Source: Nitrospirota bacterium
Lineage (GTDB): Bacteria > Nitrospirota > Nitrospiria > Nitrospirales > Nitrospiraceae
Length of the DNA: 64,000 bases
NCBI GenBank assembly: GCA_963701855.1
Contig: CAVPBK010000006.1
Span: 1,184,001-1,248,000, forward strand
Direction: 5' to 3'
Positions 42,001-48,000 of the stretch are shown here, piece after piece. Made by a program: the position numbers. The number at the start of each line of letters is the position of its first letter. The first letter of the stretch is position 1.

Positions 42001-45000
42001 TGACGTGAGCGCCAAGTCCCACGATGACGGGTCGGCCTTTGCGATGAGCCTTCACGATCGCTTTGGCGACCGCGCGTAAGGTTTTCACGCCAAGGATATC
42101 CGGCAGCGAGCGATAGAATTGGCTGAAGCTGCCTCCACGCCGCCAGGGGCCGGCAAAATCGGAGACGCGGACCTTGCTGTGCCGTTTTTTGAGCGGATAG
42201 GTTGTGAGATCCGTCACATTGATCGGCGGGATCAGGCTCGGAGTTGTGACGGGAGGCCGCTGCCGGTCAGGAGGCTTTGCCAAGGAGCTGTTCCTCGATG
42301 AGTTCACACAGGATGTGGCCGAGCGTGATGTGGCTTTCTTGAATGCGGGCCGTGACCGTCGAAGGCACGACGAACGGATATTCCACCAGACCAGCCAGTT
42401 TTCCGCCGGTCCCTCCGGTCCAGCCGATGGTGGTGAGTCCACAGGCCCGCGCAGCCTCCACACCCTTCAACACGTTGGGTGAATTGCCGCTGGTGCTGAT
42501 AGCGATGGCGACATCGCCTTTCTGGCCATGGGCACGGACTTGGCGGGCAAAGAGTTCTTCAAAACCGTAGTCATTGGCGATGCAGGTAATGGCGGCGATG
42601 TCGGTGGCCAGGGCGATGGCGGGGAGCGGGTCTCGCTCTCGTTTATAGCGGCCGACGAACTCGGCTGCGATGTGGGCCGCATCCGTGGCGCTTCCGCCGT
42701 TGCCGAAGAGTAACACTTTTCGGCCTTCGCGAAAGGCCGTGGTCATCAGTTTCACGACTTGCACGATGCGATCGGCATGCTCGCGCGCGAACTGTTGCTT
42801 GACGGTCGCGCTGTCGGCAAACGCACTGAGTACATGTTCTTTCATGGAAAGCGATTCTAGGCAACCCTCCACCATCTGTCAAACGTGACTTGCGGGTTGG
42901 TTAGGCTTTATTGTGGCGAGGGGACCCGTCTGTCGAATAGCGCTCATTGCCAGCGCAATCATGGAGCCGACATCGGAGACCGTCGCCGGCAGGATGAGGG
43001 TATTGTTCGTTTTCGCCAACTCTCCAAACTTACTGATGTACTGTTCCGCCACCCGCAGCTGGACGGCCTCCTGACCTCCCGGAACCTGGATCGTCTCCGC
43101 GACCTTGCGGAGGCCTTCAGCCGTGGCCTGCGCGATGGCGAGGATGGCCGAGGCCGCTCCCTCTGCCTCGTTGATCTGCTGTTGTTTTTTTGCCTCGGAG
43201 GCTTTGATCACTTGTTGTTTCTCGCCCTCGGCCTGGTTGATCGCCGCGTCGCGTTCGCCCTCGGAGGTGAGAATCACTGCCCGCTTTTCCCGTTCCGCCC
43301 GCATCTGCTTCTCCATCGCATCCAGTACGCCCTTGGGGGGGGTGATGTTCTTGATCTCATACCGGAGGACTTTGACGCCCCAAGGATCCGAGGCCTTGTC
43401 GAGTTCGTTGACCACCTGGATATTGATGTTGGTTCGCTCCTCGAACGTCCGATCGAGCTCGATCTTGCCGATCTCGCTCCGTAGTGTGGTCTGCGCAAGC
43501 TGGATCAGAGCGAAATTATAGTCGCTGATGCCATACGACGCGCGCTGAGGGTTCAAGATCTTGAGGTACAAGATGCCATCCACCGACACCTGCACGTTAT
43601 CGCGCGTAATACAAACCTGCTCGGGAATATCGATGGCCGTTTCCTTGAGCGAATGTTTGTAACGAATGCGGTCGATGAAGGGGAGGAGCATATGAAACCC
43701 CGCATCCAGCGTGGCGGCATATTTGCCAAGTCGCTCGACCACATAAGCACTTTGCTGCGGGACCACCACGGCGGTCTTGGCGATGATGATCAGCACCAGC
43801 AAAGCCAATATCAGCACGACAAATAGTCCGCCGGTCATCGTTACCTCCTCCATAGTCGTCGGCCCTCTTAGCTGTTCTCCGTCATTCGGCTGTAATCCAC
43901 AAGGTGAGCCCTTCGACCCGCTCAACCTTGCAGCGTTGGTTCTTTTTCAAGGGAGCGGGCCCGGCATTGTGGGCGGTCCAGGTGGTGCCGCGCAGTTCCG
44001 CCTTGCCGGTGCCACCCGGCGCCAGATCCTCGAGCGGGATTGCGGTTTCGCCTCCCATCGAATCTACGGCAGGGGTCTCGACCTCCTGCGTCTTGATCCA
44101 GGCCAACAACGGTCCACGGAAGACGAGCAGTGACAGAATTGCAAGTCCTGAAAACAAGAGCCACTGGATCCATTCCGCCTGGGCGAACCCCAGGCCGGCC
44201 AGACTGCCGACGATCAGAGCAGCCAGTCCAAAAAAGAGAATATAGAAGCCCCCGGGCGTGGCCATTTCGACGCCGAGTAGCACGAGGCCGAGGAGCATCC
44301 AATACCACCAGATCATCGGGAGACCTTATTCAGTATTCGAGAGGGTTGCGGGGAATGGGAGACCGTCATGAAAGTCTAAGCGCCTTTCCATAGACCGTCA
44401 AGCCGGAAGGCTTTTATGCCGTCCTATGTTATAGTTCGCGCGAAATGGCGCAAGACCAACCAGTCAAAGCCTTAGTGCTCGCGTTTACCGATCATGCGAC
44501 GGCGGCAGTCTACTCGATCAATCGTCTGCAGCCGGACTCGCTTTGCTTCGTGTTGCCTGAAGGGGCGAAGTCGCTCATAGAATCCGAGGTCCAGCCGAAG
44601 ATCAAGCACCTGCCTAGACGGTGGGATTGGGTGATTCTCGCAGAGACCGGCGAATTTGTCGGTTGCTATCAGACTCTTGCCAGGACACTCCCGGAAATGT
44701 TGCGTACATGGGAGGTGCATCCGGGCGAACTTGTCGTCGATGTGACCGGCGCCACCCCAGCCATGGCGGGCGCGTTGACGTTGGTTACCATGCCGCTGAG
44801 TTCGCGGATCGTGTCGCTCGTGCCGGCACGAGAGGGGCAGGAGGAGGACAGGATCGATATTGCCGGGCAGCCGTTCATTTGGACGCAGGGAAATCCCTGG
44901 GATGAGGCGGCAACTGTCTCACGTCGCGAGGGCTGCGAGCTGTTCAATCAGAGATTGTTCGCCGCAGCGGCGAAGCTGTTCCGCGAGATCGAAGCACGGG

Positions 45001-48000
45001 TGAGCGGCGGGCAGAAACCGCTCTATCGGGCCTTTGCAGACCTGGCAGATGGCTACGATCTGTGGGAGCGATTTCACTATCGTCAAGCCTGGGAAAAACT
45101 CAGGACCGCCGTAAGGGCCTTCGAGATGGCGTCCCTGTGGGGTGGACCACCAGGACTCACGTCCCTGTTACCAGCCATCAAAGCGAATGCGGGATTCTTG
45201 GAAAAGCTCGTCCTTGACCCTGCTCCCGTAAAAGATATGCAGGCCCACGATCTGCTAGCCCATGCCGGTCGGCGATTGCATGGCCTGCACGATTCGGAAG
45301 CAGCAATGGTTTCGCTCGTGCGTGCGCTCGAAGCTTTCGCCCAGCGACAGCTGTTCAAACAATGCCAGATCAAAACTTGGGATGTGCAGCCGGAGCAGTT
45401 GCCGCAGGCGCTGCAAGAAACCTGTCGATCTTGCTGGCTGGAAGATCTCGACGGCAAGTACAAGCTGCCCCTGCAGGCTCAGTTTCGAGCGCTGGCTGGA
45501 TTGGGCGACCAGATGGGCCAAGCCTTTTTGCGCGAGTGGCCGACGATGAAACCCCTGCTCGATGCCGCGCATCATGCCGTCCTCGGCCACGGCTTCGAGC
45601 CGGTGAAAGCCGAGCGGGTGCAGCAGCTATACGACGTGGTCATTAAACTATCGGGCGTCAGCGAGACATCGTTGCCGAAGTTTCCGATGCTGAACGTTTA
45701 GCGCGACGTGTTCGGGGAAGTCTTGAGGACACGAGAACAGGGTTCAGACATGTCGTTCAGGGCGGTAAAGACTGGTCTAACGGAAAATCAAGCGTTTATG
45801 GGTTGCCGAGATGCTGGGTTCCGTGAGTTCAAATTATTATGAGTTTGAAAACTAATCTGACAGCCGTGCAGAGTTGACTGCGCGATCATTTCTTGCCGCA
45901 CGCAAGCTTCCACAGAGTGTGGTCAAGACTATCTGATGAAATTCGTAGCCACTTGCCTTTTCCTGAGCTACGATCAATTACATTACCATTTCCCATATTG
46001 CCAGAAAAATACATGACCGCAAGCCCCTCATAGCGCTGTTCGGCACAGTCATAATCCATGTGCGCTTTTGCCGACGAATATGAGACTCCTTCCTTGGTTC
46101 GTACTGTCTTGAAGTCGAACAGTACCCACATCTTCACCAGATCCCCTTCTCGGCGTATGGTGGTTGGATCCGCATATACAGTCGTTCCTGAGTCGCTTTC
46201 GCCAAGCGACATCCAGTCTGCATACGCAGGTCCGTTACTCAGGAAGAAAAGGATGATTATAAGCAGTCGTGTCATGTATCTCACCTTGAACCGTGCAGCG
46301 ATGGCTACCCGATTACTTTTTGCTGCAAGCAAGCTTCCCCAGGTCGGATGAAACGCTCCCTGGTGCAACAGGTTTCCACTTTTGTTTATTTGAGTCCTTA
46401 GAAACCACCTTGCCACTCCCCAACCATATTGCCAGGGAACTTCATAAGTGTAATTATCCGCTCGCGGTCTTTTGTGCAGTCGTACTCGTGTTGCGCCTTG
46501 ACAGACAAGTACGAGATGCCACTTACGATTTGTACAGTCTTGAAGTCGTTCAAATGCCACACCTTCACCAGACTCCCTTTGCGGTGAATGGTGCCTGGAT
46601 CGGCGTATACAGTCACTCCTGCTTCCTCGTTGCCACCAACCGCCACCCACTCCGCATACGCTGGAACGCTACTCAGGAAGAAAAGGCTAAATAGAAGTAG
46701 TCGTGTCATTAGGTTGCCCCCGCGTAACAGATCGTCAGTATTGCGGGTGAAACTGTGGAAGTGTGCGCCCATTTGAGGGAGAGTTCAAATGCAACTTGGA
46801 GCAGCTTCGCGGTACCTTGCGGGGGTCAAGGGTTGGTCGCTACGGACGAGTGCGGAGAGTCTGAGGCGTGTCTACCGCAGGCTTGGCTCGGGGGTCTCGG
46901 TGAAGAGCGGACTGCGACGGACCCTACTCAGCAGCCCTTGAACTGCGTTGCCTGACAATGTTGCGCGAGTCGCTGGGCTTCTGCAATCTGCGAGGGAGTC
47001 ATACTACGGGCGGCCTAATCTCGATTGTCTGCTGCTTTGATTTTCTGCGCCATTCTTCATGTACAGCTCAATTGCGTCCTTGGCATTTGCCGCGGTGACA
47101 GTGTCCTTGAACACGAACCCGCTTGATTCAAGATGAGTCTTTTGCCATTTCTTACCATAGGCTCCGAAGACTACACACTGCACAACGCTTCCCACATTGA
47201 TGATGAGATTAGCTTGCTCCATTCCAATGCTCGCAGCCGCAATACCCCAAATCGCAAAGAACGCGCCTAACACTCCAAACCCCAACGCCCACATCTTTTT
47301 GGACAGCGCCCAGAAGGGACCAAACCCGCAAGCATTCCACGACCAACCTTGCTCAACAGCCTCATAGCCTCCTTGAGGGTTTGCATAGACCTCGAATTGC
47401 TTCATGTGTCTTTTCCTTCGGTATGGTCGATAACACGATTGCGAAGAGTCTGCGGCGTGACTACTGCGAGCGTGGAGACTAACGAGGAACAGGAAGTTCA
47501 AACAGGAAACGAATGCCCACTATATACATGGTGACGCAGCCGCTTATGGGAATGAGGCGAGTCCAACACACTTCCACCAGTTTGGTAATCTGCTCTTTTC
47601 TCGACTCTGAAGGCACCAGAATCTCGATCACCTGTCGTGTGTTCACTTTCTCAGGAAGCAAGAGCAACATGCCGCTACCGCTGCAATTGATCGAGTGCCC
47701 GTGCCCTTCTGAAAACTCCACAGTGTTGCTGTCCACAAAATTTGCCAACTCGTAGGAGTACGTTCTCCCGCAGGGCACACGCTCGCTATCTCTTCGTTCC
47801 TGTTGATTTGGCATATCTATTTCCAGGATTGTTGTAGGCGCTAACACCAGACTCGTTAGGCGGGATTCTGCTCCCGGGTCGAGGACATTTGCAAACCCTC
47901 TTTCGTATGGAGCCATTCAGCCAGTTCTACTGTCATGCCCCTCATGTTTGACGCGATACGTGTTTATCGAAAACGCTGGAGAGTTGCGTCAAGCACTTCA

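What a model noticed while it worked through the whole genome (the two positions that open the first line are those of the whole stretch)
44445..45701. CRISPR-less, core-genome Csm6-family CARF protein whose HEPN nuclease motif is dead
g02573 (418 aa) is a Csm6-type protein (CARF + 6-helix + Cas02710 HEPN domain), normally an accessory RNase of type III CRISPR-Cas switched on by cyclic oligoadenylate from Cas10. Here it stands in a genome with no cas gene and no CRISPR array, is a single-copy, strongly conserved, syntenic core gene of Nitrospiraceae, and its clade has replaced R-N-x-S of the family's HEPN motif R-N-x-S-I-L-A-H-G by A-(H/D/N)-x-A while keeping the CARF D-x-T-G-x-T signature. 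It looks like an exapted nucleotide sensor with a house-keeping, non-nuclease role.
Evidence so far: Pfam Csm6_6H (159-226) + Cas_Cas02710 (268-402), NCBIfam TIGR02710. No cas family in the tables, no CRISPR Rfam row, no repeat-spacer array in a k-mer scan of all contigs, Cas10 not found in G000. relatives.tsv: Cas_Cas02710 in 62/84 genus, 292/370 family, 397/511 order but 2303/189,784 bacterial genomes; Csm6_6H 392/511 of the order against 1086 in all bacteria. Search of 200 Nitrospirales >=90% complete: one full-length orthologue (59-94% identity, E<=1e-150) in 86 of 92 Nitrospiraceae; Cas10 over cut-off in 8/201 (Csm1 TIGR02578, call 68) and 7/201 (Cmr2 TIGR02577, call 69). Next to NfeD/Band_7 in 168 order genomes, 169 overall. 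HMMER over 1.8e9 representatives: 2169 relatives; in 117 ful [...]
(Added by a program. Inside this text positions count along the whole contig: contig position 1,184,001 is position 1 of the stretch shown here. "Call 12" and the like, gene names such as g00115 and contig names such as C1 are that model's own, and its searches are not shown. The text may have been shortened before it was handed on; [...] marks where a part breaks off. The agent that wrote the report below was given it as the finding of a first reader that could run no searches.)

Follow-up and report, generated by a model that had tools for sequence, protein, structure and literature searches.

The report
Disarmed Csm6 kept as core gene
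This Nitrospira gene descends from the CRISPR helper RNase Csm6, has lost both its signal-binding and its RNA-cutting residues, and is still kept almost unchanged across its bacterial order, so it probably has a new job outside defence.

Summary

The gene was found in 282 of 301 Nitrospirales genomes; Cas10 was found in only 17 of them. Pairwise dN/dS is 0.08-0.15.

The HEPN arginine is Ala in 51 of 53 non-redundant clade members. These include the Lys whose loss abolishes cA4 binding in TtCsm6. The CARF domain is the least conserved part, so "nucleotide sensor" is not supported.

New here:
- Sister lineages in two other Nitrospirota families carry the same clade-specific 6H/HEPN motifs but keep every canonical residue. 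Domestication therefore came before disarmament.
- Four Cas10-bearing Nitrospirales genomes examined each carry a second, fully canonical paralogue, and two of these sit beside cas1.
- NfeD/Band_7 adjacency is facultative (48 of 80 loci). The ancestral neighbour is a YbgC-like thioesterase downstream (75 of 79 loci).

The new function is unknown. It is probably a non-catalytic binding or scaffold role in the 6H/HEPN half. This scan found the same family before in two other Nitrospira genomes.

The parts
44445..45701 (+). Whole ORF (418 aa + stop): disarmed Csm6 homologue, CARF + 6H + HEPN
44445..44894 (+). CARF domain (aa 1-150). It is the least conserved domain in the clade, and the cA4-contact positions are replaced (T15 D16 H17, P38, A103, P105, S124, P127).
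44739..44765 (+). Remnant of CARF motif II (aa 99-107, D-V-T-G-A-T-P-A-M). The family Lys (TtCsm6 K137) is Pro here.
   Evidence: K137A abolishes cA4 binding (PMC10897365)
44895..45224 (+). 6H helical domain (aa 151-260). It is highly conserved in the clade.
44997..45020 (+). Clade-specific motif R-V-S-G-G-x-K-P (aa 185-192) at the N-terminus of helix 188-208. It is absent from canonical Csm6 and shared with the motif-intact sister lineages.
45135..45155 (+). Clade-specific motif L-W-G-G-P-P-G (aa 231-237), just before helix 238-257
45225..45698 (+). HEPN domain (aa 261-418). The fold and many residues are conserved (R276, R293, E296, H382).
45423..45434 (+). C327-x-x-C330 pair, conserved (>=90%) only in the Nitrospirales branch
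45561..45593 (+). Degenerate HEPN motif D-A-A-H-H-A-V-L-G-H-G (aa 373-383). The family reads R-N-x-S-I-L-A-H-G; Arg is replaced by Ala375, and His382 is kept.
44317..44444 (.). 128-nt divergent intergenic region between NfeD and the Csm6-like gene. There is no Shine-Dalgarno-like sequence before the ATG.
   Evidence: sequence read directly
48302..48682 (+). YbgC/FadM-family 4HBT thioesterase, the ancestral same-strand downstream neighbour. In this window it is separated from the ORF by an insertion.
42267..42875 (-). GmhA-like SIS protein, a conserved divergent upstream neighbour (74 of 80 loci)
42879..44316 (-). Band_7/SPFH and NfeD pair. It is a facultative insert between SIS and the Csm6-like gene and not part of the feature.

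Best explanation
The gene encodes a Csm6-derived pseudo-enzyme.

Shown:
- It is a full-length structural homologue of Thermus thermophilus Csm6, with CARF, 6H and HEPN domains.
- It belongs to one well-supported clade of Nitrospirota proteins encoded among housekeeping genes, away from cas loci.
- In the Nitrospirales branch of that clade, two sets of residues have been replaced together: the residues that bind and cleave cyclic tetra-adenylate in the CARF pocket, and the catalytic Arg (often also the Asn) of the HEPN R-x6-H motif.
- The protein is nevertheless kept single-copy at one chromosomal site, in 282 of 301 genomes, under strong purifying selection.
- The clade carries its own conserved motifs, and these are already present in sister lineages that still keep every canonical residue. 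The motifs are R-V-S-G-G-x-K-P and [WF]-G-G-P-P-G in the 6H domain and E-P-V-K-x-E-R after the HEPN motif.

Inferred:
- The ancestor of the clade acquired a second, cOA-independent role carried by the 6H/HEPN half.
- Type III CRISPR became rare in Nitrospirales (17 of 301 genomes), and the cA4 sensor and the RNase then decayed while the second role kept the protein.
- Today it most likely acts as a homodimeric, non-catalytic binding or scaffold protein. It may bind RNA or another phosphate-bearing ligand in the still-conserved HEPN cleft, or at the new glycine-rich loops.
- It may be functionally linked to the YbgC-like acyl-CoA thioesterase that has followed it on the same strand since the origin of the order.
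- It no longer reads cA4 and no longer cuts RNA by the canonical mechanism.
For: Homology:
- TIGR02710 scores 116 bits against a cut-off of 84.
- A family profile hits TtCsm6 5fsh/8jbb at E 8e-24 over residues 8-401.
- The AF2 model has pLDDT 95.4.
- Foldseek's top hits are TtCsm6.

Disarmament, from direct alignment with TtCsm6 fetched from pTT27: G58/T59/S60 -> T15/D16/H17; T81 -> P38; G135 -> A103; K137 -> P105; Y161 -> S124; N164 -> P127; R415 -> A375; N416 -> H376. H422 is kept as H382.
- The 63 canonical representatives are 63/63 K, Y, R, N and H at these sites.
- In TtCsm6, K137A loses cA4 binding, T81A binds 100-fold weaker, T59A/S60A kills cleavage and RNase activity, and R415A, N416A and H422A each kill RNase activity (PMC10897365 passages).
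- Across 53 non-redundant clade members, position 375 is Ala in 51, position 105 is Pro in 40 and Ala in 10 and never Lys, and position 38 is Pro in 49.

Selection:
- dN/dS is 0.08-0.155 in 10 pairs.
- 36 positions are invariant.
- Mean entropy is 1.39 for CARF, 0.94 for 6H and 0.95 for HEPN.

Distribution:
- The gene matched in 282/301 genomes; Csm1 in 10/301 and Cmr2 in 9/301.
- The own genome has no cas or cyclase marker.

Internal control:
- Four Cas10-bearing Nitrospirales genomes carry a second paralogue with all motifs intact. Two of these sit beside cas1.
- These paralogues fall outside the clade in the tree.

Clade and order of events:
- The Nitrospirales core and the f23/f14 sisters form an exact clade of 23 with SH-aLRT 100.
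- The sisters keep all canonical motifs and share the new ones.
- The sisters lie among NAD kinase, rho, prfA and murA, or murJ and glmM.
- Three of four f23 genomes tested have Cas10.

Thioesterase:
- It lies on the same strand downstream in 75 of 79 unique loci, and within 150 nt in 41 of them.
- It is present in 8 of 10 loci from the other families, all adjacent.
- Four of five genomes lacking the Csm6-like gene also gave no thioesterase match.
Against: - No activity was measured. Loss of RNase activity and of cA4 binding is inferred from motifs and from mutagenesis of a 18%-identical homologue.
- His382 is kept in 50/53 and Asn376 in 31/53, and the motif region is among the most conserved stretches. 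This fits a still-used cleft and does not exclude a non-canonical catalysis.
- The floor of the CARF pocket (D99, T/S101, A103, T104, P38) is conserved, so a different small ligand is not excluded.
- The thioesterase link is limited to the order. It is absent in the f23 and f14 loci. It is broken by insertions in 34 of 75 loci, including this window.
- One genome has a clean deletion of the Csm6-like gene with the thioesterase kept. Co-loss of two adjacent genes can be a single deletion.
- The order-of-events argument rests on 6 sister sequences and on an unrooted quick tree.
- Two motif-intact sisters (G308, G569) have no detectable Cas10.
- I had no model coordinates, so the positions of the new motifs in 3D are inferred from secondary structure only.
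Confidence: 0.6

Rival explanations
1. The CARF domain is still a working sensor that has been retuned to another nucleotide-like ligand (for example an adenine-containing metabolite). The dead HEPN domain serves only as an output or dimerisation module.
For: - D99, T/S101, T104, M107 and P38 are conserved in at least 49 of 53 clade members.
- There is precedent: the divergent CARF of RtcR works outside CRISPR (abstracts of PMC7790460 and PMC9650030 in the listing).
- Neighbours make or use adenine-containing metabolites (ADP-heptose pathway genes, acyl-CoA thioesterase). This last point is my inference only.
Against: - The CARF domain is the least conserved domain, and its pocket loops (aa 121-140) are the most variable stretch, with entropy 2.09.
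- Motif I positions vary within the clade: T31/V10, D34/G9, D25/H15.
- The basic residue that anchors phosphate in CARF ligands is replaced by Pro or Ala.
- Motif II also serves dimerisation in TtCsm6 (PMC4748810).
Confidence: 0.2
2. The protein is still a ribonuclease. It would use a non-canonical active site built from His382, Asn/His376, His377 and nearby conserved Arg and Lys residues. It would be either constitutive or controlled by something other than cA4.
For: - H382 is kept in 50/53 members. Position 377 is His, Gln, Arg or Lys in 51/53. N376 is kept in 31/53.
- The motif region is among the most conserved parts.
- Anantharaman et al. 2013 list HEPN families that lack the Arg but keep the His (PMC3710099).
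Against: - R415A alone abolishes RNase activity in TtCsm6 (PMC10897365).
- The Arg is 63/63 in canonical representatives and Ala in 51/53 in the clade.
- A constitutive non-specific RNase as a core gene would be costly.
Confidence: 0.12
3. It is still a defence effector, switched on in trans by a cyclase not found here, or by type III systems that come and go in the lineage.
For: - PADLOC holds a full-length profile of this clade (PDLC01812, 781.6 bits).
- Trans-activation of effectors encoded elsewhere has been proposed for type III loci (PMC11229360).
- 17 of 301 genomes of the order do carry Cas10.
Against: - Binding and catalytic residues are both lost.
- Cas10-bearing genomes bring their own intact paralogue.
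- There is no Cas10, mCpol, SMODS, Cas1 or RAMP in the own genome.
- The chromosomal site is fixed, synteny is core-like and dN/dS is low, unlike typical defence genes.
- No phage matches were found, and plasmid matches are only distant.
Confidence: 0.04
4. It is a decaying relic with no function.
For: - It is lost in 19 of 301 genomes, including four single-contig genomes of one genus. One of these shows a clean deletion at the syntenic site.
- It is interrupted by an in-frame stop in G075.
Against: - dN/dS is 0.08-0.155.
- The frame is intact in 120 of 126 loci examined.
- 36 positions are invariant over sequences as low as 43% identical.
- The AF2 model has pLDDT 95.4.
Confidence: 0.02

Closest known systems
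Thermus thermophilus Csm6 (TTHB152; PDB 5FSH, 8JBB, 8JBC, 8JH1), of the TIGR02710 / Cas_Cas02710 + Csm6_6H family
   Same: - Retains D131/T133 (D99/T101), E332 (E296) and H422 (H382).
   Different: - 18% identity.
- Not beside cas genes, whereas TtCsm6 closes a csm operon and a second Thermus TIGR02710 gene abuts cas1.
- Lacks K137, T81, T59/S60, Y161, N164, R415 and N416.
- Carries extra conserved motifs in 6H and after the HEPN motif.
- Is a near-universal chromosomal gene of an order rather than a patchy accessory gene.
RtcR, the sigma-54 activator of the RtcBA RNA-repair operon, which has a divergent CARF domain
   Same: A CARF-domain protein working outside CRISPR-Cas in a housekeeping process, with a CARF that departs from the cOA-binding consensus (abstract lines of PMC7790460 and PMC9650030 seen in the listing).
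   Different: - RtcR joins CARF to AAA+ and HTH domains and is a transcription factor. This protein keeps 6H + HEPN and has no DNA-binding domain.
- There is no rtc operon nearby.
Catalytically inactive HEPN domains (e.g. the HEPN of Swt1, and HEPN domains fused to MNT nucleotidyltransferases)
   Same: A HEPN fold that has lost the R-x4-6-H catalytic set. Such domains are proposed to act in binding rather than cleavage (PMC3710099 passages).
   Different: Those examples are not Csm6-type, have no CARF or 6H domains, and are not derived from a cOA-controlled effector.
Crn1 ring nucleases (Sso2081, Sis0455)
   Different: Motif I and the Lys of motif II, which define ring-nuclease activity, are absent here. 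Crn1 proteins have no HEPN domain.

Membership tests
TIGR02710 / Csm6 (Thermus type) | Sequence score over the curated family cut-off | tested here: met
   116.4 bits against a cut-off of 83.9, covering model positions 3-380 of 384
TIGR02710 / Csm6 (Thermus type) | CARF + 6H + HEPN architecture and fold | tested here: met
   [not shown]
TIGR02710 / Csm6 (Thermus type) | HEPN R-x4-6-H catalytic motif (R415, N416, H422 in TtCsm6) | tested here: not met
   P0001 has A375, H376, H382. Ala at the Arg position in 51 of 53 clade members, against R in 63 of 63 canonical representatives.
TIGR02710 / Csm6 (Thermus type) | CARF ligand site: motif I G-[GT]-S, S/T at the T81 position, motif II (D/N)-x-(S/T)-x3-(R/K), and Tyr at the Y161 position | tested here: not met
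   P0001 has T15-D16-H17, P38, D99-x-T101-x3-P105 and S124. Lys is never found at position 105 in the 53 clade members.
TIGR02710 / Csm6 (Thermus type) | Genomic association with a type III CRISPR-Cas system (Cas10) | tested here: not met
   The own genome has no Cas10, Cas1, RAMP or CRISPR array. In the order, the gene is in 282/301 genomes and Cas10 in 17/301.
TIGR02710 / Csm6 (Thermus type) | cOA-activated ssRNA cleavage | not testable with these tools
   Needs biochemistry
Crn1-type ring nuclease | Motif I (G-x-S/T) and the motif II Lys that position the scissile phosphate | tested here: not met
   Both are replaced
RtcR-like exapted CARF regulators | CARF fused to an AAA+ sigma-54 activator and an HTH domain | tested here: not met
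   Only 6H and HEPN domains follow the CARF domain
Housekeeping Csm6-like clade of Nitrospirota (defined here) | Clade-specific motifs R-V-S-G-G-x-K-[PH]-L-Y, [WF]-G-G-P-[PS]-G and E-P-[VI]-K-x-E-R, plus placement in the 23-member clade | tested here: met
   All three motifs are present. Clade SH-aLRT is 100 and SH-like support is 100.

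The most novel reading that the evidence does not exclude
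A CRISPR ancillary effector was domesticated in two steps within one phylum.

Step 1: a Csm6 moved out of cas loci into housekeeping neighbourhoods. It gained a new functional surface, two glycine-rich loops at helix N-termini of the 6H domain plus a basic E-P-V-K-x-E-R extension of the HEPN helix. This state survives, with all catalytic and cA4-binding residues intact, in two other Nitrospirota families.

Step 2: in Nitrospirales, where type III CRISPR is rare, the cA4 pocket and the RNase centre were dismantled and the protein became a dedicated pseudo-enzyme. Its new site would bind a cellular ligand or partner. That ligand could be tied to envelope or lipid metabolism, given the ancestral YbgC-like thioesterase operon and the LPS-heptose and murein neighbours. 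A conserved C-x-x-C and a His cluster at the old active site could make it metal- or redox-responsive.
Probability: 0.3. Interest if true: 0.75.

Novelty: new variant of a known kind. Interest (0 to 1): 0.6.

Why it matters
- Csm6/Csx1 proteins are treated as diagnostic accessory genes of type III CRISPR-Cas. Here a whole order of environmentally important nitrifiers keeps one as a near-universal chromosomal gene with both of its known active sites removed. Automated annotation still calls it "CRISPR-associated". That label inflates CRISPR and defence inventories for Nitrospira.
- The clade offers a natural series for asking how an immune effector acquires a cellular role: a canonical paralogue, a domesticated but intact form, and a disarmed form. 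The motif-intact and disarmed orthologues can be compared directly at the bench.
- It adds a second case, after RtcR, of a CARF protein recruited to housekeeping. Unlike RtcR, it retains the HEPN effector fold.

Tried and rejected
- Complex prediction (Csm6-like protein with the thioesterase, alignments A5 and A6) was not available. Whether the two bind is untested.
The 4-sequence alignment A3 worked.
- The CARF census of Makarova et al. 2020 (PMC7498327) is not held. Whether it already describes this clade could not be checked. PADLOC profile PDLC01812, named 'CARF1--CARF_HEPN', matches P0001 end to end, so some published profile set already contains this clade; its source was not checked.
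- Literature searches found nothing on this clade: 'CARF, HEPN, Nitrospira' gave 2 papers and 'TIGR02710' gave 2 papers. The search 'Csm6, CARF, inactivated, non-CRISPR' gave 56 papers holding at least 3 of the 4 terms, of which 15 were listed; none of the listed titles or abstract starts mentions the clade.
- phmmer of the single protein against PDB sequences gave 0 hits. Only the family profile reached TtCsm6.
- PADLOC gave nothing for NfeD or Band_7.
- RNA evidence: contigs of three metatranscriptome runs from two studies cover the ORF, mostly at 85-95% identity. Contigs in RNA libraries do not prove transcription, so I draw no conclusion from them.
- The promoter and terminator scan gave nothing informative for the + strand.
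- There was no match in phage records. Plasmid records gave only 25-28% identical canonical homologues in Thermus, Rubrobacter and Synechocystis.
- NfeD/Band_7 as a functional partner is rejected. The pair is absent from 32 of 80 unique loci and from all 10 loci of the other families.
- The thioesterase as an obligatory partner is weakened. It is absent in the f23 and f14 contexts, and G014 keeps it after a clean deletion of the Csm6-like gene.

Full report
- Window 44445-45701 (+) is an open frame of 418 codons.
- Pfam places a Csm6 6H domain at 159-226 and the Cas_Cas02710 HEPN domain at 268-402.
- NCBIfam TIGR02710 scores 116.4 bits against a cut-off of 83.9.
- PADLOC contains a 418-position profile, PDLC01812 'CARF1--CARF_HEPN', that matches end to end at 781.6 bits. 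The clade is therefore already represented in a published profile set. The census paper I expected to be its source (Makarova et al. 2020) is not held and could not be read.

**Fold and nearest solved relative.**
- The single sequence finds nothing in the PDB.
- A profile of 112 family members (A1) matches T. thermophilus Csm6 (5FSH, 8JBB) at E 8e-24 over residues 8-401.
- An AlphaFold2 model built on A1 has mean pLDDT 95.4 and pTM 0.89.
- Foldseek ranks TtCsm6 first (E 4e-13, TM 0.46-0.58).

**No CRISPR-Cas in the genome.**
- The assembly has 4.30 Mb in 15 contigs and is 97.1% complete.
- A k-mer scan finds no repeat-spacer array.
- Csm1 gives only weak partial matches below cut-off, confined to the first ~120 positions of the model.
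- Cmr2, mCpol, SMODS, Cas1 and RAMPs give no match at E<=1.
- Arrays can be lost at contig breaks, so this means 'not found', not 'proven absent'.

**Distribution.**
- The protein matches in 282 of 301 genomes of the order that are at least 90% complete: f1 188/192, f2 84/91, f3 9/14, f4 0/3. Nearly all matches are single-copy. Record titles name the carriers as Nitrospira and Nitrospiraceae.
- Csm1 is over cut-off in 10 of the same 301 genomes and Cmr2 in 9. By comparing the listed handles, the union is 17, and all 17 also carry the core gene.
- The gene is not indispensable. 19 genomes lack it, including four single-contig genomes of one genus.
- In one of these (G014), the GmhA-like gene and the thioesterase now face each other across about 100 nt, with no remnant of the Csm6-like gene between them.
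- In G075 the frame carries an in-frame TAG.
- These tallies include one unpublished genome (G243).

**Both active sites are gone, not only the nuclease.**
- I fetched TtCsm6 from pTT27. Its numbering agrees with the structural paper.
- I aligned it with P0001, 69 family representatives and the sister proteins.
- Passages of PMC10897365 give the mutagenesis results for TtCsm6:
  - K137A loses cA4 binding.
  - T81A binds 100-fold weaker.
  - T59A/S60A abolishes cA4 cleavage and RNase activation.
  - Y161 and N164 act in cA4 cleavage.
  - R415A, N416A and H422A each abolish RNase activity.
- P0001 has T15-D16-H17 for G58-T59-S60, P38 for T81, A103 for G135, P105 for K137, S124 for Y161, P127 for N164, A375 for R415 and H376 for N416. 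It keeps only D99, T101, E296 and H382.
- In 63 canonical representatives these positions are 62-63/63 identical (S or T at the T81 position), apart from the more variable motif I positions 59/60 and the N164 position (G 57/63).
- In 53 clade members, non-redundant at 90% identity and 43-100% identical to P0001, position 375 is Ala in 51. Position 105 is Pro in 40 and Ala in 10, and never Lys. Position 38 is Pro in 49, and H382 is kept in 50.

**Which part is under constraint.**
- Pairwise dN/dS is 0.08-0.155 in ten pairs.
- Within the clade, the CARF domain has mean column entropy 1.39, with 23% of columns at least 90% conserved. The 6H domain has 0.94 and 42%. The HEPN domain has 0.95 and 44%.
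- The most variable 20-residue block is 121-140, the lid of the old ligand pocket. The most conserved blocks are 181-220 and 341-400.
- In the wider family the pattern is the other way round: the nearly invariant columns number 10 in CARF, 5 in 6H and 20 in HEPN.
- The clade has motifs that canonical proteins lack: R-V-S-G-G-x-K-P (185-192), L-W-G-G-P-P-G (231-237) and G-F-E-P-V-K-x-E-R (383-391). A C327-x-x-C330 pair is confined to the Nitrospirales branch.
- Both glycine-rich motifs sit just before helices 188-208 and 238-257 in the model's secondary structure. I read this, without coordinates, as a possible new anion- or ligand-binding end of the helical bundle.

**An internal control.**
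- Four Cas10-bearing genomes of the order (G125, G157, G170, G201) carry a second TIGR02710 gene.
- All four paralogues keep S-V-G-[GT]-[SG], T-[GS]-G-T-K, S-Y-[VI]-[GT]-G and R-N-x-S-x-L-A-H-G. The core copy examined from one of these genomes (G125) is degenerate.
- In G157 and G201 the paralogue lies directly beside cas1. This is the arrangement seen for a TIGR02710 gene on pTT27.
- In the tree the paralogues fall in a different, well-supported part of the family.

**The clade is older than its disarmament.**
- Among 107 representatives at 50% identity, the seven with degenerate motifs form one clade with SH-like support 100.
- A profile of the three outlying members (A4) finds strong matches outside the order only in family f23 of another class (7 of 11 genomes) and in f14 of the same class (1 of 1).
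- With these added, the core and sister sequences form an exact clade of 23 with SH-aLRT 100.
- The f23 and f14 proteins share the three clade motifs. They nevertheless keep every canonical CARF and HEPN residue.
- They lie among housekeeping genes and not cas genes: NAD kinase | gene | rho, prfA, murA, hisG in four f23 loci, and murJ | gene | unknown ORF, glmM in f14.
- Of four f23 genomes tested, three have Cas10. G308 (99% complete) and the f14 genome have none.
- The simplest reading is that relocation and the new motifs came first, and that loss of the cA4 and RNase sites followed in the lineage where type III systems are rare. The sample is small and the tree unrooted, so this is an inference.

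**Neighbourhood.**
- tblastn of the window's proteins on fetched loci, deduplicated to 107 unique sequences, shows the conserved order: RfaE-domain-II, DinB, SprT-like, GSU2086-family, GmhA-like SIS (all on the minus strand) | Csm6-like (+) | YbgC/FadM-family thioesterase (+).
- NfeD and Band_7 lie between SIS and the gene in 45 of 80 loci that have at least 3 kb upstream. NfeD alone is there in 3, and neither in 32. The pair is present in none of the 10 loci from the other families.
- The thioesterase follows on the same strand in 75 of 79 loci that have at least 3 kb downstream. It is within 150 nt in 41 of them and within 25 nt in 14. It follows in 8 of 10 loci of the other families, always adjacent.
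- In this window a low-GC insert separates the two genes. It spans 45886-47916, has GC about 0.51 against 0.59, and carries Adhesin_E, DUF2628 and PilZ genes.
- The thioesterase keeps its conserved Y-Y-E-D-T-D stretch.
- Four of five genomes lacking the Csm6-like gene also gave no thioesterase match. The fifth keeps it.
- Co-deletion of neighbours is easy, and the f23 and f14 contexts lack the thioesterase.

**What it most likely does.**
- Shown: homology, loss of both canonical sites, purifying selection, new conserved motifs, a housekeeping context, and independence from Cas10.
- Inferred: it is a dimeric pseudo-enzyme whose working surface is the 6H/HEPN half. It would bind RNA, a phosphate-bearing ligand or a protein partner without the cA4 switch and without canonical cleavage.
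Continued defence and simple decay are unlikely.

**Novelty.**
- My literature searches found no description of this clade. The key census paper could not be read.
- Exapted CARF (RtcR) and inactive HEPN domains (PMC3710099) are known themes. I therefore rate this a new variant of a known kind.
- Two earlier notes of this scan on other Nitrospira genomes reached the same core reading. My calls reproduce it independently. They add the motif-intact sister lineages, the canonical paralogues, the per-domain constraint pattern and the corrected neighbourhood.

Noticed in passing
window 45886-47916: A low-GC block (about 0.51 against 0.59) carries three minus-strand genes: an Adhesin_E-domain protein, DUF2628 and PilZ. 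It is inserted between the Csm6-like gene and its usual thioesterase neighbour. The block is present in full only in the closest relative (L035) and is partial or absent elsewhere, so this site is an insertion hot spot.
   Followed up: partly
window 38617-42875: A conserved minus-strand block of envelope and DNA-damage genes: RfaE domain II (heptose-1-P adenylyltransferase), DinB-type polymerase, SprT-like protease, a GSU2086-family protein (439 bits) and a GmhA-like SIS protein that scores below the equivalog cut-offs. The listed ORFs 41291-42463 and 42267-42875 overlap by about 200 nt. The family match of the GSU2086 protein starts at residue 79, so its true start is probably further downstream.
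   Followed up: partly
L124 (G075:C19:2787210-2788360): In a 16-Mb assembly of the same order, the core Csm6-like gene carries an in-frame TAG and is split into two matches. It is a possible pseudogene or an assembly error.
   Followed up: no
L131 3868-5575 and L133 3869-5582: Beside the canonical Csm6 paralogues of G157 and G201 lie two consecutive Cas1-family ORFs: a full-length one of about 320 aa and a second of about 260 aa that matches only the first 100 profile positions.
   Followed up: no
L134-L137 (f23 genomes): The motif-intact Csm6-like gene lies in a conserved string: NAD kinase (divergent), then rho, prfA, murA and hisG on the same strand. One such genome (G308, 99% complete) shows no Cas10, so an intact cA4-type effector may be present there without a known cyclase.
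   Followed up: partly
L145 7354-8427 (G014): The Csm6-like gene is cleanly deleted here. The GmhA-like gene and the thioesterase are left divergent across about 100 nt in a complete 2.1-Mb genome.
   Followed up: yes
window 43882-43925: The Band_7 and NfeD ORFs overlap by 44 nt as listed. This suggests translational coupling or a later NfeD stop/start assignment.
   Followed up: no
[not shown]
   Followed up: no
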